A stretch of 27,453 nt of DNA from a virus, in UHGV virus genome UHGV-1341913; one strand, written 5' to 3'. Of this stretch, positions 63-25,063 are shown piece after piece. Both the position numbers and the translations under genes were made by a program. Each line of letters begins with the position of its first letter. The first letter of the stretch is position 1. The notes beneath the pieces are model-generated. The model was not told where the DNA came from. It made no database searches and saw nothing but the letters and a program-made list of their open reading frames with translations.

Positions 63-391
63 TGGGCGAATCTTATAAAGTTAGTCCGTTATTTTCAATT
101 GCTTATATGTTAGAATATTCTTTTTTCGAAGAAGTTCAAAAAGATGATTCTGCCAGTAAATTTGAAATTAAAACTGATAAAGAAATTAAGTGGAAAGTAG
201 TAGGTATTACTGGTAGTTGCATGTTTTATATCTATGCTCAAACTGATACGAAGGAAGAAGCTAAAAAGAAAGCTCTAGAATATCTTGAAGAGTATGAAGA
301 AGGCCCGGTAATGATTACACAAGATGCTGAATTAGTTTCTGTTAAATTAGTTAAAAACGTTGAAAGTAAGGAGCTGGGATCAACATGCTAA
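62..391 (+). CDS. small early hypothetical protein (cd.3 position in T4 order)
   Basis: 109-aa ORF with ATG start, tightly packed with neighbours. Positional assignment only. Confidence 0.55.
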   Translation: MGESYKVSPLFSIAYMLEYSFFEEVQKDDSASKFEIKTDKEIKWKVVGITGSCMFYIYAQTDTKEEAKKKALEYLEEYEEGPVMITQDAELVSVKLVKNVESKELGSTC

Positions 392-621
392 GTGAAAAAC
401 CAATTACTGTTAAAGAATTCCAAGAAAAAGTTAAACTATTTGCTCAGGAATTGGTAAATAAGGTTTCTGAACGATTTCCAGAAACATCGGTTCGCGTTAT
501 TACCGAAACTCCTCGTTCAGTATTAGTAATTGTGAATCCAGGTGATGGTGACCAAATAACACATCTCAAATTGGATTTTGATGGATTAGTTGAAGCACAA
601 AGGGTGTATGGCGTACTATGA
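385..621 (+). CDS. small early hypothetical protein (cd.2 position)
   Basis: 78-aa ORF, start overlaps end of upstream ORF. Positional assignment. Confidence 0.55.
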   Translation: MLSEKPITVKEFQEKVKLFAQELVNKVSERFPETSVRVITETPRSVLVIVNPGDGDQITHLKLDFDGLVEAQRVYGVL

Positions 622-956
622 TGAATTTAACTGATATAATTGATAATTGTCTTGAAAATGATACTGGCGATCATAGAGCGCTTGACTCTGAAACCGCACA
701 GTTCATTAGAATAACTTTAATGAATGACACTCTAGTGAATAGTATTCATCCTTCTGTGTATGATGCTATTATTGTGACGAAGTATCCGGTTGAGCTTCAC
801 AAAAAGATTGTTGGCGCAATTTTTATTGATAAGAAAAACCGCTTTAAAGATGGGCAGAATATAATTAGTTCTGTTATTAAAAGTATAACTAAACTTCGTC
901 ACGAAATTTATCGTGTTGAAACTGCTAAATCTGCTTATCTGGTGATTATGAAATGA
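618..956 (+). CDS. small early hypothetical protein (cd.1 position)
   Basis: 112-aa ORF, ATGA overlap with upstream ORF and ATGAAATGA-type overlap with cd. Positional assignment. Confidence 0.55.
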   Translation: MMNLTDIIDNCLENDTGDHRALDSETAQFIRITLMNDTLVNSIHPSVYDAIIVTKYPVELHKKIVGAIFIDKKNRFKDGQNIISSVIKSITKLRHEIYRVETAKSAYLVIMK

Positions 957-1534
957 AAGCGAGTACAGTACTTCAAATTGCATATTTAGTATCGCAAGAA
1001 TCAAAATGTTGCTCCTGGAAGGTAGGAGCAGTAATTGAAAAGAATGGACGTATTATTTCTACCGGATATAATGGTTCACCTGCCGGGGGTGTGAACTGTT
1101 GTGATTATGCTGCTGAGCAAGGTTGGTTGTTGAATAAGCCTAAACATACTATCATTCAAGGTCATAAGCCTGAATGTGTATCATTTGGTTCAACTGATCG
1201 TTTTGTCTTGGCGAAAGAACACCGTAGCGCTCACTCTGAATGGTCGTCTAAAAATGAAATTCATGCTGAACTAAATGCGATTTTGTTTGCTGCACGAAAC
1301 GGTTCTTCAATTGAAGGTGCTACTATGTATGTAACACTTTCTCCTTGCCCAGATTGCGCAAAAACGATAGCTCAATCTGGTATTAAAAAGCTGGTTTATT
1401 GTGAAACATACGATAAAAATAAACCTGGCTGGGATGATATTCTGCGAAATGCAGGTATTGAAGTGTTTAATGTTCCTAAGAAAAACTTGAATAAGTTAAA
1501 CTGGGAAAACATCAACGAATTCTGTGGTGAATAA
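953..1534 (+). CDS. cd: dCMP deaminase
   Basis: 193-aa ORF with the zinc-dependent deaminase signature H-x-E (IHAELNAI) and P-C-x-x-C (SPCPDCA). Length and sequence match T4 Cd as I recall it. Confidence 0.92.
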   Translation: MKASTVLQIAYLVSQESKCCSWKVGAVIEKNGRIISTGYNGSPAGGVNCCDYAAEQGWLLNKPKHTIIQGHKPECVSFGSTDRFVLAKEHRSAHSEWSSKNEIHAELNAILFAARNGSSIEGATMYVTLSPCPDCAKTIAQSGIKKLVYCETYDKNKPGWDDILRNAGIEVFNVPKKNLNKLNWENINEFCGE

Positions 1535-1770
1535 TGAAATTTCGTTTAGTACAGCTCACAGCAATTAGTTCTTATTCTAACGAGAACATTTCATTTGCTG
1601 TAGAGTATAAGAAGTATTTTTTCTCTAAATGGAAACAGTATTATAAAACTGATTGGACTAGTATTGATAGGCCGTATAGTTGGAAATCTGATTTAGAAAA
1701 ATGCCAAAAATTGCTTTCCACTCTTAAAGAACGTGGAACAACCCATATTAAAACTGTAATAGGTAAATAA
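1534..1770 (+). CDS. hypothetical protein (31.2 position)
   Basis: 78-aa ORF immediately after cd (TAATG overlap). Positional assignment. Confidence 0.55.
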   Translation: MKFRLVQLTAISSYSNENISFAVEYKKYFFSKWKQYYKTDWTSIDRPYSWKSDLEKCQKLLSTLKERGTTHIKTVIGK

Positions 1771-2079
1771 ATGAAACTGACAACTGAACAAAAAGTAGCA
1801 ATTCGTGAAATTTTGAAAACTAAATTGTCCATGGGGGTTTCAAACATAGTTTTTGAAAAGTCTGATGGTACTATTCGTACTATGAAAGGTACTCGTGATG
1901 CCGATTTTATGCCAACCATGCAAACCGGTAAATTGACTGAATCTACTCGGAAAGAATCTACTGATATGGTTCCAGTATTTGATGTTGAGCTTGGTGCATG
2001 GCGAGGTTTTTCTATTGATAAATTAATTTCCGTTAATGGTATGAAAGTTGAGCATTTGCTTCAATTTATTGGTAAATAA
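1771..2079 (+). CDS. hypothetical protein (31.1 position)
   Basis: 102-aa ORF starting 1 nt after the upstream stop. Confidence 0.55.
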   Translation: MKLTTEQKVAIREILKTKLSMGVSNIVFEKSDGTIRTMKGTRDADFMPTMQTGKLTESTRKESTDMVPVFDVELGAWRGFSIDKLISVNGMKVEHLLQFIGK

Positions 2080-2135
2080 ATGCTTTAAGAATTATTTGTT
2101 ATTATTAATTCATCTGTTAACAAAAAGGAAAAACG

Positions 2136-2471
2136 ATGTCTGAAGTACAACAGCTACCAATTCGTGCTGTCGGTGAATATGTTATTTTAGTTTCTGAACC
2201 TGCACAAGCCGGTGATGAAGAAGTTACAGAATCAGGACTTATTATCGGTAAACGTGTTCAAGGTGAAGTTCCTGAACTGTGTGTAGTTCACTCCGTTGGT
2301 CCTGATGTTCCTGAAGGTTTCTGCGAAGTTGGTGATTTGACTTCTCTTCCAGTTGGTCAAATTCGAAACGTTCCGCATCCTTTTGTAGCTCTGGGTCTTA
2401 AGCAGCCAAAAGAAATTAAACAAAAATTTGTTACCTGTCACTATAAAGCTATTCCATGTCTTTATAAGTGA
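2136..2471 (+). CDS. 31: co-chaperonin for GroEL (GroES-like), head assembly
   Basis: 111-aa [25 protein letters not shown]..., recognised as T4 gp31. Purine-rich RBS (aaaaaggaaaaacg) precedes the ATG. Confidence 0.92.
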
Positions 2472-21344: not shown

Positions 21345-21360
21345 AAGGGCCGAAGCCCTT
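21345..21360 (-). other. UUCG-tetraloop hairpin at the uvsW / uvsW.1 junction
   Basis: Minus-strand AAGGGC-TTCG-GCCCTT overlaps the uvsW stop codon and sits just upstream of the uvsW.1 RBS. Confidence 0.5.
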
Positions 21361-22870
21361 ATAAATTAACTGTTTTCATTACGTAATTAAATTTTTCATC
21401 TGCGTAGCGCTGAATACGATCAATGCCGTGTTTTAAAAGATAGTTCAAATGAACGTATTTCTTTTTCGTATTAGCAGATTTTGGCTTAACACCGCAATCA
21501 TCTATGAGGTCCCAGACTGTTGCGATTGTTTTAGAACCATGTTTACGTAATACGCGACCTATTGTTTGCAATACAATAATTTTAGATTTAACACCGTGTG
21601 CTAAAACAACGTGATGCAGATTTTTAACTGAAATACCAGTAGAAAATACACCATAACTAGCTACTATAATTATTCCTTTACCGTTTTCAGCTAAGGTTTT
21701 CATTACATTGCGGGTTTCGGTATCAACTTCCCCTGATACGTAATAAACTTTATCGTATTCATTTTTAATTAAATCGAAAATAGCTTTACCGTGCGATACG
21801 TGTTTAAACATTACAAAAGCATTTTCATCTTTTTGCGCAAGCTTAATAGCTAATTTAGCGATCCATTTATTTCTTTTACTGAGCCCAGTAATAATTTTTA
21901 TTTCTTCTTGGTAAGTTTTTCCCTTTAATTTAGTAGTGAACTCATCGGGATAGCGAAGAAAAATACTATTAATTTTTAACTCAGTTACTTGTCCATCTTC
22001 CATTAATTTAGAGGTCGTTACTGGCTTAAATATTTCACCGAACATTCCAACATACTGCATGATATTAGCTTTGCCATCGCGCAATGAACCAGACAAACCA
22101 AATTTAAACATACAGTTATTTAAACCTGATATGATAGATGAAATACTTTTTCCTGTAGCAAGATGACATTCATCATTCATCATCATTCCAAACTGTGAGA
22201 ACCATTCTTTTGGTTGTTTTACTACAGTTTGCCATGTACCAACAACGACTGGTGCATCATTTTTATATTTATCATCTTTTGATGCTCCACCGCCGATTTT
22301 CTTTATCATTGCATGACTGAATAAACGATAGTCAACAAAGTCATCAGCCATCTGAGTTGTCAGAGCAGTTGTTGGAACAATGATAAGAATTTTGCCTTCA
22401 TAATTTTCCAAATAATACCGAGCAAGCAAAGCTTGAATTAAAGATTTACCTGCGGATGTTGGAAGATTAAGAATTCTACGACGATTAACTAATCCTTCGA
22501 ACACTGCATCTTTTTGATACCAATGCGGTTCAATTCTTTTATTTCCTGAATAGATTTCTAATTTAGAAAGCCATTCATCAAAATCTTTTCTTGATAATTC
22601 TTCTTTTTCGTTAATTTGCGGGTCAATCCAGACTTTATAGCCAAAGTTATCACAGAACTTTTTAATTTGCCCGACTAAACCGAATGGAAGAAGGCGATTA
22701 TAATCTAAAAGACGAATTCGTCCATCCCAGTGACCATATTTGTACTTCGGATTAAAACGATACCCATCAGCTTCAAAGCTAAAGAAATCACGGAGTTCAT
22801 GAAATGTACTTTCTTCACAATCAATTCTCACGTGACTAAAATCATAAAAATGTACTTTAATGTCAGTCAT
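21359..22870 (-). CDS. uvsW: UvsW RNA-DNA and DNA-DNA helicase (SF2)
   Basis: 503-aa ORF with Walker A-like LPTSAGKS and a DExH-like box MMMNDECH. Position and length match T4 UvsW. Confidence 0.9.
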   Translation of the reverse strand: MTDIKVHFYDFSHVRIDCEESTFHELRDFFSFEADGYRFNPKYKYGHWDGRIRLLDYNRLLPFGLVGQIKKFCDNFGYKVWIDPQINEKEELSRKDFDEWLSKLEIYSGNKRIEPHWYQKDAVFEGLVNRRRILNLPTSAGKSLIQALLARYYLENYEGKILIIVPTTALTTQMADDFVDYRLFSHAMIKKIGGGASKDDKYKNDAPVVVGTWQTVVKQPKEWFSQFGMMMNDECHLATGKSISSIISGLNNCMFKFGLSGSLRDGKANIMQYVGMFGEIFKPVTTSKLMEDGQVTELKINSIFLRYPDEFTTKLKGKTYQEEIKIITGLSKRNKWIAKLAIKLAQKDENAFVMFKHVSHGKAIFDLIKNEYDKVYYVSGEVDTETRNVMKTLAENGKGIIIVASYGVFSTGISVKNLHHVVLAHGVKSKIIVLQTIGRVLRKHGSKTIATVWDLIDDCGVKPKSANTKKKYVHLNYLLKHGIDRIQRYADEKFNYVMKTVNL

Positions 22871-22899
22871 GTCTAAATACCATGTAATAAATATATCTA

Positions 22900-22907
22900 T
22901 ATTTATA
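22900..22907 (-). promoter_or_regulatory. T4 late promoter TATAAATA (minus strand, uvsW)
   Basis: Plus-strand TATTTATA is the reverse complement of TATAAATA, 30 nt upstream of the uvsW ATG. Confidence 0.55.
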
Positions 22908-22920
22908 CTGAGGAAATATT

Positions 22921-23601
22921 ATGATAGATAAAGATTATATTGCAGAGCTGAAGGCTCTTGATGATAATAAAGAAGCTAAAGCTAAATTAGCTGAATATGC
23001 TGAACAGTTTGGTATAAAGGTCAAAAAGAATAAATCTTTTGATAATATCGTTAATGATATTGAAGAAGCCCTCCAGAAGCTCGCTAGTGAACCTATGCCA
23101 GAGACTGATGGGTTATCTATTAAAGACTTAATTGATGCTGCTGATGCTGCAGACGGATTAAAATATGACGATGAAGAAGTCAATCCAGAGGCAGCACTTC
23201 TGATTGATTCTCCGGTTAAATCTGACATTAAAATTGAAGTAGTAGAAACGGATAAAATTCCTGAAAATACCGATGTTTTGATTGAAGATACTCCTTTTGT
23301 TGAAGAAAAATTCGAACAGGCTGTAGCTGAGATTATTGAATCTGAAAAGCCGTCTGTATTTACTCTTCCGGAAAACTTTAGCCCAAATCTTCAGCTGATT
23401 GGAAAAAATCCAGGATTCTGCACTGTTCCTTGGTGGATTTACCAATGGATTGCTGAAACTCCAGATTGGAAATCTCGCCCAACCAGTTTTGAACATGCGT
23501 CTGCGCATCAAACTTTATTTAGCTTAATTTACTACATTAATCGTGACGGATCAGTTCTAATTCGTGAAACACGCAATTCTTCTTTCGTAACATTAAAATA
23601 A
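22921..23601 (+). CDS. inh: Inh, inhibitor of prohead protease gp21 (capsid-associated)
   Basis: 226-aa ORF directly upstream of hoc, as in T4. Acidic, low-complexity middle region. Confidence 0.75.
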   Translation: MIDKDYIAELKALDDNKEAKAKLAEYAEQFGIKVKKNKSFDNIVNDIEEALQKLASEPMPETDGLSIKDLIDAADAADGLKYDDEEVNPEAALLIDSPVKSDIKIEVVETDKIPENTDVLIEDTPFVEEKFEQAVAEIIESEKPSVFTLPENFSPNLQLIGKNPGFCTVPWWIYQWIAETPDWKSRPTSFEHASAHQTLFSLIYYINRDGSVLIRETRNSSFVTLK

Positions 23602-23610
23602 GGATAACTT

Positions 23611-25035
23611 ATGACTTTTACAGTTGATATAACTCCTAAAACCCCAACAGGAGTTATTGATGAAACCAAGCAGTTTACTGCTACACCCAGTGGTCAAACT
23701 GAAGGTGGAACTATTACCTATGCTTGGAGTGTAGATAATGTTCCACAGGATGGAGATGAAGCAACTTTTAGCTATGTACTAAAAGGACCTGCAGGTCAAA
23801 AGACTATTAAAGTAGTTGCAACAAATACAGTTCCAGAATCTGAAGCTGAACCTGAAACAGCAGAAACTACGACAACTATCACAGTTCAAAATAAGACACA
23901 AACAACTACTTTAGCTGTAACTCCTGGTAGCCCTGATGCTGGAGTGATTGGAACTCCAATTGAATTTACCGCTGCCTTAGCTTCTCAACCTGATGGGGCA
24001 TCTGCTACGTATCAGTGGTATGTAGATGATTCTCAAATTGGTGAAGCGACTTCTGCTACATTTAGCTATACTCCAACTGCAAGTGGAGTAAAAAGAATTA
24101 AATGCGTAGCGCAAGTAACAGCAACAGATTATGACGCAAAAACAGTTACTTCTAATGAAGTATCATTAACAGTTAATAAGAAAACACAGACAACTACGTT
24201 AGCCGTAACTCCTGCTAATCCTGCTGCCGGAGTAATTGGAACCCCAGTTCAATTTACTGCTGCCTTGGATTCACAGCCACCAGGAGCGTCTGCTACGTAT
24301 CAGTGGTATGTTGACGGTTCTCTGGTCGATGGAGAAACTACTACTACATTTAACTATACTCCTACCACAGTTGGAGCTAAAACAGTTAAGTGTGTAGCCC
24401 AAGTAACTGCAGAAAATTACAATGAAAAGGAAGTTACTTCTAATGAAGTATCATTGACAGTTAATAAGAAGACAATGAATCCACAGGTTACATTGACTCC
24501 TCCTTCTATTAACGTTCAGCAAGATGCTTCGGCTACATTTACGGCTAATGTTACTGGAGCACCTGAAGCAGCACAAATTACTTATTCATGGAAGAAAGAT
24601 TCTTCTCCTGTAGAAGGGTCAACTAACGTATACACCGTTGACACCTCATCTATTGGAAGTCAAACTATTGAAGTTACTGCTGTCGTTACAGCAACTGACT
24701 ATGATAGTAAAACAGTTAAAGCGACTGGTCAAGTTCAGGTAACTGATAAAGTTGCTCCGGAACCAGAAGGTGAATTGCCTTATGTTCATCCTCTTCCACA
24801 TCGTACTTCGGCTTATATCTGGTGCGGTTGGTGGGTTATGGATGAAATCCAAAAAATGACCGAAGAAGGTAAAGATTGGAAAACTGAAGATCCAGATAGT
24901 AAATACTACCTGCATCGTTACACTCTTCAGAAGATGATGAAAGACTATCCAGAAGTTGATGTTCAAGAATCACGCAATGGATACATCATTCATAAAACTG
25001 CTTTAGAAACTGGTATCATCTATACCTATCCATAA
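23611..25035 (+). CDS. hoc: Hoc, highly immunogenic outer capsid protein (Ig-like domain decoration protein)
   Basis: 474-aa ORF made of tandem Ig-like modules plus the C-terminal capsid-binding region (YVHPLPHRTSAYIWCGWWVMDE...). It is about 98 aa longer than the 376-aa T4 Hoc I recall, through an internal domain duplication. Confidence 0.88.
   Translation: MTFTVDITPKTPTGVIDETKQFTATPSGQTEGGTITYAWSVDNVPQDGDEATFSYVLKGPAGQKTIKVVATNTVPESEAEPETAETTTTITVQNKTQTTTLAVTPGSPDAGVIGTPIEFTAALASQPDGASATYQWYVDDSQIGEATSATFSYTPTASGVKRIKCVAQVTATDYDAKTVTSNEVSLTVNKKTQTTTLAVTPANPAAGVIGTPVQFTAALDSQPPGASATYQWYVDGSLVDGETTTTFNYTPTTVGAKTVKCVAQVTAENYNEKEVTSNEVSLTVNKKTMNPQVTLTPPSINVQQDASATFTANVTGAPEAAQITYSWKKDSSPVEGSTNVYTVDTSSIGSQTIEVTAVVTATDYDSKTVKATGQVQVTDKVAPEPEGELPYVHPLPHRTSAYIWCGWWVMDEIQKMTEEGKDWKTEDPDSKYYLHRYTLQKMMKDYPEVDVQESRNGYIIHKTALETGIIYTYP
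23890..24462 (+). repeat. tandem duplication of a ~95-aa Ig-like domain inside hoc (unit A 23890..24174, unit B 24175..24462)
   Basis: Both units read NK(K)TQTTTLAVTP..GVIGTP..FTAAL.SQP.GASATYQWYVD...TF.YTPT..G.K..KCVAQVTA..Y..K.VTSNEVSLTVNKKT. Identical nucleotide stretches include tctgctacgtatcagtggtatgt and gttacttctaatgaagtatcatt. Confidence 0.8.
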
Positions 25036-25045
25036 TCATAATCAT

Positions 25046-25063
25046 AAGGGGCTTCGGCCCCTT
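25046..25063 (+). terminator. UUCG-loop hairpin after hoc (terminator or RNA-stability element)
   Basis: AAGGGGC-TTCG-GCCCCTT followed by T-rich tcttcatttt. The core AGGGGCTTCGGCCCCT is identical to the hairpin at 4329..4344. Confidence 0.55.

What the first reader, a model, noticed from the sequence alone, without database searches (positions are those of the whole stretch)
23890..24462. Hoc carries an extra Ig-like domain created by an internal tandem duplication
hoc encodes 474 aa, whereas I recall T4 Hoc as 376 aa, and the excess corresponds to one ~95-aa module. Units A (23890..24174) and B (24175..24462) are adjacent, in frame, about three-quarters identical at the protein level by eye, and share long identical nucleotide runs, indicating a relatively recent duplication followed by divergence. 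Hoc Ig-like domains project from the capsid and mediate weak adherence to surfaces, so a longer fibre could alter reach or binding.
Basis: partly seen in the sequence, partly recalled or inferred. Interest (0 to 1): 0.5.

Follow-up and report, generated by a model that had tools for sequence, protein, structure and literature searches.

The report
Four-Ig Hoc: common copy-number variant
This T4-like phage's capsid fibre protein Hoc does carry one more immunoglobulin-like module than T4's, but about a third of sequenced relatives have the same form, and it belongs to an old, recombining 1-to-4-copy module array rather than a recent private duplication.

Summary
They are 78% identical in DNA and 72% in protein, with no indels. 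T4 Hoc has 376 aa and one such unit, its Ig-like domain 2.

The interpretation "relatively recent duplication followed by divergence" is not supported:
- dS between A and B is 0.65, above the divergence of the rest of hoc across sampled Tequatroviruses (0.04-0.41).
- Unit B is 97-99% identical to units in many other phages, including the sole unit of a 376-aa Hoc.
- Unit A is a chimera of segments found elsewhere.

Tequatrovirus hoc genes carry 1, 2, 3 or 4 units (376, 472/474, 568/570, 664 aa). About 30% of sampled GenBank records have the two-unit form, including AR1, PP01 and Sf21.

The window allele is 99.3% identical to a three-unit allele (UGKSEcP2) once a single out-of-register 288-nt crossover is allowed at 23971..23984. 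It may therefore be a contraction, not an expansion.

An assembly artefact is very unlikely. Variation in Hoc domain number is already published. This is an ordinary new allele of a known class, and the recombination dynamics are modestly interesting.

The parts
23611..25035 (+). hoc gene (highly immunogenic outer capsid protein), 474 codons plus stop
   Evidence: ORF list. phmmer to T4 Hoc chain 5vf3_Z gives E = 3.4e-219. The gene order inh-hoc-24.3-24.2-rnlB matches T4 and phage Killian.
23611..23889 (+). Ig-like domain 1 (aa 1-93), including the acidic linker with a 2-aa indel relative to T4
   Evidence: All-beta domain at high pLDDT. 38-41% identical to units A and B, z > 12 against shuffles. 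Linker variants are listed.
23890..24177 (+). Unit A (aa 94-189): a domain-2-type Ig/PKD module, chimeric in origin
   Evidence: TRF and repeat finder. Unit nt 1-95 are identical to the position-1 unit heads of ZCEC15 and sb1, and differ at one position from those of Killian, ECP2301 and UGKSEcP2 unit 1. Unit nt 96-288 are 100% identical to UGKSEcP2 unit 2 of 3. Best full-length match is the sole unit of SHBML-50-1, 97.9%.
24178..24465 (+). Unit B (aa 190-285): second domain-2-type Ig/PKD module
   Evidence: 99.3% nt identity to Killian unit 2. 99.0% to U115, YUEEL01, EC101 and others. 97% to the only unit of fFiEco06. The best Pfam PKD stretch is aa 198-267.
23971..23984 (+). Inferred out-of-register crossover interval (GCTGCCTTAGCTTC; unit nt 82-95) relating this allele to three-unit alleles
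   Evidence: Mosaic dynamic programming: gene nt 1-360 match the 570-aa hoc allele of a Logan contig (its product is identical to UGKSEcP2 Hoc) at offset 0 with 1 mismatch. Gene nt 361-1425 match at offset +288 with 9 mismatches. The interval lies between the last mismatch in the +288 register (gene nt 360) and the first mismatch in the 0 register (gene nt 375).
24154..24171 (+). NEVSLT motif, copy 1 (aa 182-187), at the last beta-strand of unit A
   Evidence: Motif positions. In phage PNJ-9 Hoc, S183, L184 and T185 of N180-T185 in domain 2 were needed for MUC2 binding (PMC11853027).
24442..24459 (+). NEVSLT motif, copy 2 (aa 278-283), at the last beta-strand of unit B
   Evidence: Motif positions. 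Literature as for copy 1.
24466..24744 (+). Ig-like domain corresponding to T4 domain 3 (aa 286-378)
   Evidence: Pfam Ig_3/I-set over aa 291-376. All-beta at high pLDDT. 34% identical to A and B, z about 13.
24745..25032 (+). C-terminal capsid-binding domain (aa 379-474), equivalent to T4 Hoc 281-376
   Evidence: Nearly every residue is invariant across 30 homologues. The best phmmer stretch, aa 275-474, aligns with T4 Hoc 177-376. The T4 domain limits come from PMC10385173. The AF2 model has low confidence here.

Best explanation
[quoted passage not shown] This is not a private, recent duplication. In Tequatrovirus the domain-2 module forms a tandem array whose copy number is polymorphic, from 1 to 4 units of exactly 288 nt. 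The unit lineages are old, and they are continually reshuffled by homologous recombination between hoc alleles, both in register and out of register by whole units.

The window allele is a recombinant of known unit types. Most probably it arose from a three-unit (570-aa) allele of the UGKSEcP2 type by one unequal crossover between units 1 and 2. That crossover removed exactly 288 nt and created the chimeric unit A.

Both units are kept intact by purifying selection.

Inferred mechanism: the C-terminal domain anchors Hoc at the centre of each gp23 hexamer. The Ig string projects outwards. One more unit lengthens the fibre by about one Ig domain and adds a second domain-2 binding surface with different loops.
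For: Shown:
- The array and its statistics.
- T4 has one unit.
- Length classes among homologous protein clusters are 376-378 (1 unit), 468-474 (2 units) and 568-570 (3 units). slur03 has 664 aa with 4 units.
- In an even sample of 657 phage records with a hoc match, about 35 are one-unit, 17 two-unit and about 3 have three or more.
- A and B are 78% identical to each other. B is 97-99% identical to units of other phages, including a single-unit gene. A is 94-98% identical to units elsewhere.
- dS(A,B) = 0.65 against 0.04-0.41 for orthologous D1 and D3+C-terminal segments. dN/dS(A,B) = 0.25.
- The segment-wise mosaic pattern of all units.
- One-breakpoint decomposition onto a three-unit allele gives 10 mismatches in 1425 nt. 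The best in-register two-unit gene reaches only 94.8%.
- No other two-unit Hoc in the phage collection or the top 120 protein clusters has this unit type in first position.
- Independent crossover products with other breakpoints exist. The sole unit of C2-3 is A up to about nt 216 and B from about nt 222. The sole unit of SHBML-50-1 has a position-1-type head (unit nt 1-65) joined to UGKSEcP2 unit 2 sequence from nt 66.
- Nearly identical hoc backbones and flanks carry 1 unit (LF73P3), 2 (window) and 3 (UGKSEcP2).
- The AF2 model has four Ig-like domains, and the fold search supports this.
- A/B differences are enriched in predicted loops: 19/45 loop positions against 8/51 strand positions, Fisher p = 0.006.

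From the literature:
- Hoc is a fibre of Ig-like domains on a C-terminal capsid-binding domain. Homologues carry from 1 to 10 Ig domains (PMC10385173).
- T4 recombines readily at high multiplicity of infection (PMC9271167).
Against: - The direction of the last event cannot be proven. The three-unit allele could instead have arisen from a window-like allele by an unequal crossover with an sb1-like allele whose second unit supplies the unit-2 head.
- Alternatively, unit A could have been made by an in-register conversion patch, with no change of copy number.
- Only about 25 hoc genes were compared at nucleotide level. The copy-number frequencies come from a 60-row sample and a score-biased list of protein clusters.
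- No reads were available, so the sequence of this particular phage stock was not re-verified.
- No functional data exist for two-unit Hoc. The lengthening and avidity effects are inferences.
Confidence: 0.8

Rival explanations
1. One reading: a relatively recent in-situ tandem duplication of domain 2 in this phage lineage, followed by divergence of the two copies.
For: The two units are adjacent, in frame, of equal length and without indels. They are each other's closest paralogues within the protein: 72-73% identity against 29-41% to D1 and D3.
Against: dS(A,B) = 0.65 exceeds the orthologous divergence of hoc across the sampled genus. Unit B is 99% identical to units in other phages and 97% to a sole unit. 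Unit A is 97.9% identical to a sole unit elsewhere. The two-unit form is shared by about 30% of sampled relatives. Unit A is a chimera of two other unit types.
Confidence: 0.05
2. The window allele is ancestral or independent with respect to three-unit alleles. Either the 570-aa alleles arose from a window-like two-unit allele by unequal crossover with another two-unit allele (expansion), or unit A was created by an in-register gene-conversion patch without any change of copy number.
For: The head of UGKSEcP2 unit 2 matches the head of sb1 unit 2, so a single sb1-like by window-like out-of-register crossover could generate a three-unit gene. The sole unit of SHBML-50-1 differs from unit A at only 6 of 288 positions, five of them at unit nt 66-81, so similar chimeras exist in single-unit genes and could act as in-register donors.
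Against: The chimeric unit A in first position of a two-unit gene is so far unique to the window. Three-unit alleles with an intact unit 2 occur in many records, including UGKSEcP1/2, YUEEL01, EC101, ESh16, ESh34 and TOPO13. Both flanks of the breakpoint match the same three-unit allele at 99.3%.
Confidence: 0.2
3. Assembly artefact: the second unit, or the junction at 23971..23984, was created by mis-assembly of a repeat.
For: No reads were available. The exact 474-aa protein is not on record elsewhere.
Against: The copies differ at 63 of 288 positions, so they cannot be a duplicated read pile. The longest exact identity between them is 24 nt. The inferred junction lies in only 14 nt of identity between units 1 and 2 of the three-unit allele, too short for a k-mer collapse. 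The reading frame is intact, and both units show dN/dS well below 1. Two-unit genes are present in many independent assemblies.
Confidence: 0.03

Closest known systems
T4 Hoc (NP_049793, 376 aa; PDB 5vf3/8t1x; Fokine et al. 2023, PMC10385173)
   Same: [quoted passage not shown] D1, D3 and the C-terminal region are 90-94% identical in DNA. phmmer gives E = 3.4e-219.
   Different: The window protein has two domain-2-type modules instead of one, plus a 2-aa longer D1-D2 linker. T4's single unit is closer to unit A (89%) than to unit B (81%).
Two-unit (472/474-aa) Hoc of other Tequatroviruses: AR1 (BAI83192), Sf21, wV7, PP01, HP3, Killian, U115, ECP2301
   Same: Identical domain architecture and the same 288-nt unit length and phase. 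Unit B is 98-99% identical to the second unit of Killian, U115 and ECP2301.
   Different: The first unit differs. Other two-unit genes carry a 'Killian.1-type' unit (84-86% to A) or a more distant type (AR1, Sf21: 76%). The best whole-gene identity is 94.8%.
Three- and four-unit Hoc: UGKSEcP2/UGKSEcP1 (570/568 aa), YUEEL01 (568 aa), slur03 (664 aa)
   Same: The window gene equals the UGKSEcP2-type gene at 99.3% except for one 288-nt register shift. The unit types are shared.
   Different: One or two fewer units. Unit A fuses the head of their unit 1 to the body of their unit 2.
Klebsiella phage PMBT63 Hoc-like protein (PMC13435897), and Hoc homologues with 1-10 Ig domains such as Serratia phage Muldoon (PMC10385173)
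   Same: [quoted passage not shown] The papers state that Hoc domain number varies among T4-like phages.
   Different: These are distant homologues (about 46% identity to T4 for PMBT63). Neither paper, as far as read, analyses the unit-level copy-number polymorphism and out-of-register recombination within Tequatrovirus.

Membership tests
Hoc (T4-type highly immunogenic outer capsid protein) | C-terminal capsid-binding domain homologous to T4 Hoc residues 281-376 | tested here: met
   The phmmer best stretch, aa 275-474, aligns to T4 Hoc 177-376 with whole-protein E = 3.4e-219. The C-terminal residues are almost all invariant across 30 homologues.
Hoc (T4-type highly immunogenic outer capsid protein) | N-terminal linear string of Ig-like domains | tested here: met
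   Pfam PKD scores above its cut-off, with Ig_3/I-set hits. The AF2 model has four all-beta domains at pLDDT around 90. Foldseek matches four-Ig ectodomains and RB49 Hoc 3shs.
Hoc (T4-type highly immunogenic outer capsid protein) | Conserved genomic position between inh and 24.3/24.2/rnlB | tested here: met
   The window ORFs at 22921..23601 (inh-like), 25131.., 25332.. and 25620.. match the annotated order in Killian and T4. The 300 nt upstream are 100% identical to LF73P3 and Killian.
Hoc (T4-type highly immunogenic outer capsid protein) | Binds as a monomer at the centre of gp23* hexamers (155 copies per capsid) | not testable with these tools
   Known for T4 (PMC10385173). Inferred here from the conserved C-terminal domain.
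Recent in-situ tandem duplication | The two copies are more similar to each other than either is to any sequence in other genomes | tested here: not met
   A and B are 78% identical. B is 97-99% and A 94-98% identical to units in other phages. dS(A,B) = 0.65.
Polymorphic tandem module array maintained by unequal homologous recombination | Alleles differing by whole units on otherwise near-identical backbones, with chimeric units at the junctions | tested here: met
   1, 2, 3 and 4 units of exactly 288 nt are observed. LF73P3, the window and UGKSEcP2 carry 1, 2 and 3 units on backbones that are at least 98.8% identical. Chimeric units occur in the window, C2-3 and SHBML-50-1.
Polymorphic tandem module array maintained by unequal homologous recombination | Copy-number change observable within a phage population or in crosses | not testable with these tools
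   Requires amplicon or long-read sequencing of lysates, or mixed infections.
Assembly-induced duplication | Near-identical copies whose junction is explained by repeat collapse or expansion | tested here: not met
   The copies diverge by 22% and the longest shared exact run is 24 nt. The same architecture occurs in many independent assemblies. Reads were not available.

The most novel reading that the evidence does not exclude
The domain-2 array of Tequatrovirus hoc behaves as a fast contingency-like locus. Unequal recombination between diverged units during co-infection, or within replicating concatemers, switches fibre length between 3 and 6 Ig-like domains. It also shuffles loop variants on otherwise identical phage backbones. 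Natural populations could thereby tune valency and reach of adhesion to mucus or bacterial surfaces. The window allele would be a fresh product of such a switch, from three units to two.
Probability: 0.3. Interest if true: 0.45.

Novelty: new member of a known kind. Interest (0 to 1): 0.22.

Why it matters
Hoc is the phage T4 protein behind the 'bacteriophage adherence to mucus' model, and it is a widely used display scaffold. It is useful for choosing or engineering therapeutic and display phages to know two things. First, natural T4-like phages carry 3 to 6 Ig-like modules built from interchangeable domain-2 cassettes. Second, near-identical phages differ only in that number. The array also offers a natural series (1-4 units) for testing whether fibre length and valency affect mucus binding. 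The particular finding, one more Ig domain than T4, is neither rare nor unexpected.

Tried and rejected
- Counting phage records that contain a unit-unit junction, using a 96-nt junction query. This failed because the tool joins the separate head and tail matches of single-unit genes into one 'place'. The 381 'full-coverage' records are therefore meaningless for this purpose. I used the spans in an evenly spaced sample instead.
- The search for related loci on IMG/VR returned only 21 loci, of which only four were used in the nucleotide-level unit comparison, so it added little.
- Looking up the exact 474-aa protein in public assemblies found nothing. It could not serve as independent confirmation of this allele.
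- Literature searches did not find a paper describing the domain-2 copy-number polymorphism within Tequatrovirus. They found only general statements that domain number varies. PMC10580926 was not relevant.
- The AF2 model of the C-terminal domain was poor (pLDDT below 50), probably because the alignment is almost invariant there. I did not interpret it.
- Acquisition of the extra module from an unrelated Ig-containing gene was considered and rejected. A and B are each other's nearest paralogues and both are orthologous to T4 domain 2.
- Overlapping minus-strand ORFs within hoc (e.g. 24646..24966) were treated as spurious.

Full report
**1. What is in the sequence**

The ORF 23611..25035 (+) encodes 474 aa. 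It is flanked upstream by an inh-like ORF (22921..23601). Downstream lie ORFs matching T4 24.3, 24.2 and rnlB. This is the same order as in T4 and phage Killian.

The 25-kb window is 96-98.5% identical to many Tequatrovirus genomes, including LF73P3, ECP2301 and vB_SsoM_113. The protein matches T4 Hoc chains in the PDB with E = 3.4e-219.

Tandem Repeats Finder reports one 288-nt array of 2.1 copies at 23881..24474, with 78% matches and no indels. The repeat finder agrees. In codon phase the units are:
- A = aa 94-189 (23890..24177)
- B = aa 190-285 (24178..24465)

They share 69 of 96 residues. Self-comparison at all other in-frame offsets gives 35 ± 3% identity, so the 78% at offset 288 has z = 14.7. 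The longest exact runs shared by A and B are 23 and 24 nt.

**2. Comparison with T4 and domain count**

T4 hoc (NC_000866, 110187..111317) is 1131 nt / 376 aa and contains a single unit. The 98-aa difference is one 96-aa unit plus a 2-aa indel in the acidic D1-D2 linker.

| Evidence | Result |
|---|---|
| Pfam PKD | 43.7 bits against a cut-off of 23.5, two stretches |
| Pfam Ig_3 / I-set | aa 291-376 |
| AlphaFold2 (30-sequence alignment) | four consecutive all-beta domains over aa 1-380, pLDDT mostly above 90 |
| AlphaFold2, C-terminal domain | poorly modelled |
| Foldseek against PDB | best hits are four-Ig ectodomains (ICAM-5 D1-D4, Dscam1 Ig1-4); RB49 Hoc (3shs) also hit |

D1, A, B and D3 are all detectably paralogous (29-41% identity, z > 10). 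Hoc was therefore built by older duplications, and A/B is the youngest layer.

**3. The form is common, not a private feature**

Among the 120 best protein clusters from about 5.8 billion proteins, Hoc homologues fall into three length classes:

| Length (aa) | Units | Clusters |
|---|---|---|
| 376-378 | 1 | 79 (80 of the 120 clusters have one unit, counting a 366-aa partial) |
| 468-474 | 2 | about 30 |
| 568-570 | 3 | 8 |

This list is biased toward longer proteins because they score higher.

An even sample down the ranking of 657 phage records with a hoc match gave about 35 one-unit, 17 two-unit and 3 probable multi-unit genes. Two-unit genes include AR1 (annotated 'outer capsid protein Hoc', 474 aa), Sf21, wV7, PP01, HP3, pSs-1, Killian and U115. 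YUEEL01 and UGKSEcP2 have three units (1707 and 1713 nt). slur03 has four (1995 nt, 664 aa).

The literature already says that Hoc homologues carry variable numbers of Ig-like domains, up to ten (PMC10385173). [quoted passage not shown]

**4. Age of the A/B split**

Nei-Gojobori estimates give dS(A,B) = 0.65, dN = 0.16 and dN/dS = 0.25. The non-repeated parts of hoc (D1; D3 plus the C-terminal domain) between the window and eight other phages give dS of 0.04-0.41, with T4 at 0.23-0.35. Units within other multi-unit genes are equally or more diverged (dS 0.6-1.5).

At nucleotide level:
- Unit B is 99.3% identical to Killian unit 2.
- Unit B is 99.0% identical to units in U115, YUEEL01, EC101 and others.
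- Unit B is 97% identical to the only unit of fFiEco06.
- Unit A is 97.9% identical to the only unit of SHBML-50-1.
- Unit A is 94% identical to the middle unit of UGKSEcP2.
- Unit A is 89% identical to T4's unit.

The A and B lineages therefore predate the divergence of these phages. 'Recent duplication followed by divergence' is not the right description. Both units are under purifying selection. Their 27 amino-acid differences are enriched in predicted loops: 19 of 45 loop positions against 8 of 51 strand positions, Fisher p = 0.006.

**5. Mosaicism and the origin of this allele**

A site-by-site alignment of 21 units shows block-wise sharing of variants:
- Nt 1-95 of unit A are identical to the 'position-1' unit heads of ZCEC15 and sb1, and differ at one position from those of Killian, ECP2301 and UGKSEcP2 unit 1.
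- Nt 96-288 of unit A are 192/192 identical to UGKSEcP2 unit 2.

I ran a dynamic-programming mosaic decomposition of the whole window gene against 23 other hoc genes in all registers. It needs a single switch:
- Gene nt 1-360 match the 570-aa allele of a Logan contig, whose product is identical to UGKSEcP2 Hoc, at offset 0 with 1 mismatch.
- Gene nt 361-1425 match the same allele at offset +288 with 9 mismatches.

That is 99.3% identity overall. The best in-register two-unit gene reaches 94.8%. The crossover interval is gene nt 361-374, which is window 23971..23984 (GCTGCCTTAGCTTC).

The simplest history is an unequal crossover between units 1 and 2 of a three-unit allele, deleting exactly one unit. 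I prefer this direction for two reasons. The chimeric unit A in first position is so far unique to the window. Three-unit alleles with the intact unit 2 are present in many records.

An expansion in the other direction cannot be excluded: a window-like allele crossing with an sb1-like allele. An in-register conversion patch cannot be excluded either.

Similar events with other breakpoints are visible:
- The sole unit of C2-3 is A up to about nt 216 and B from about nt 222. This is the product expected from an A×B crossover in a window-like gene.
- The sole unit of SHBML-50-1 switches from the position-1-type head to UGKSEcP2 unit 2 sequence between unit nt 38 and 65.

LF73P3 (1 unit), the window (2) and UGKSEcP2 (3) share nearly identical hoc backbones and flanks. 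Copy number therefore changes faster than the surrounding sequence diverges.

**6. Artefact?**

Reads were not available, and the exact 474-aa product is not on record elsewhere. A mis-assembly is nevertheless very unlikely:
- The copies differ at 63 of 288 positions.
- The inferred junction lies in only 14 nt of identity.
- The frame is intact.
- The architecture recurs in many independent assemblies.

**7. How it most likely works (inference)**

In T4 the C-terminal domain (residues 281-376) binds the centre of each gp23* hexamer. The Ig-like domains form a roughly 180 Å linear fibre (PMC10385173). The window's C-terminal domain is almost invariant relative to T4, so the same anchoring is expected.

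A second domain-2 module should extend the fibre by about one Ig domain. It should also present a second domain-2 surface with different loops.

Domain 2 has been implicated in binding:
- Domains 2 and 3 of T4 and RB49 Hoc attach to E. coli.
- In phage PNJ-9, S183/L184/T185 of the NEVSLT segment were needed for binding fucosylated MUC2 (PMC11853027).

NEVSLT occurs in both window units, at aa 182-187 and 278-283. These residues form the last beta-strand, so the mutational effect in that study may be structural. In phage PNJ-6 binding mapped to domain 1 instead (PMC11150434). Any avidity or reach effect of the extra unit remains untested.

**8. Verdict**

The 'recent duplication' and its implied unusualness are not supported.

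This is a new recombinant allele of a common, already annotated four-Ig class of Hoc, within a 1-4-unit polymorphic array. Interest is low to modest. The useful by-product is the evidence for recurrent whole-unit, out-of-register recombination in hoc.

Noticed in passing
window 22871..22920 (between uvsW, 21359..22870 minus strand, and inh, 22921..23601): T4 carries the homing endonuclease gene segE between uvsW and inh (NC_000866). The window has only a 50-nt spacer there, so segE is absent.
   Followed up: no
L039 (Escherichia phage slur03, LN881728.1) 352..2346: hoc is 1995 nt / 664 aa with four domain-2-type units. This is the largest Tequatrovirus Hoc seen here. slur08 and slur14 gave the same pattern of hits.
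   Followed up: partly
L035 (vB_EcoM_OE5505, MK373785.1) 201..1337: The one-unit hoc of this phage contains an internal stop codon and is annotated as two CDSs ('PKD domain protein' and 'hypothetical protein'). It may be a natural hoc-null phage or a sequencing error.
   Followed up: no
L001 (LF73P3), window, L031 (UGKSEcP2): Three phages with almost identical hoc backbones and flanks carry 1, 2 and 3 units respectively. The single unit of LF73P3 is itself a three-part mosaic: a position-1-type head (nt 1-37), a unit-B-type body and a unit-A-type tail.
   Followed up: partly
window 25031..25047: A short CATAAT x2.8 microrepeat overlaps the hoc stop codon and the start of the hoc-24.3 spacer. 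Its significance is unknown and it is probably trivial.
   Followed up: no
public records seen: Annotation oddities. Several Hoc clusters are named 'endonuclease' under Shigella sonnei, Salmonella enterica or Bacillus cereus. A 'Staphylococcus phage SAJK-IND' record (MG010123.1) carries a T4-like two-unit hoc at 87.6% identity. The RefSeq record of phage HP3 has a taxonomy line reading Rosemountvirus.
   Followed up: no
window 23611..25032, domains D1, A, B, D3: All four Ig-like domains are mutually paralogous (29-41% identity, z > 10). D3 shares a 34-nt stretch (24685..24718, 'VTATDYDSKTV') at 79% identity with the corresponding stretch of unit A. This could be a remnant of common origin or a conversion tract.
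   Followed up: partly
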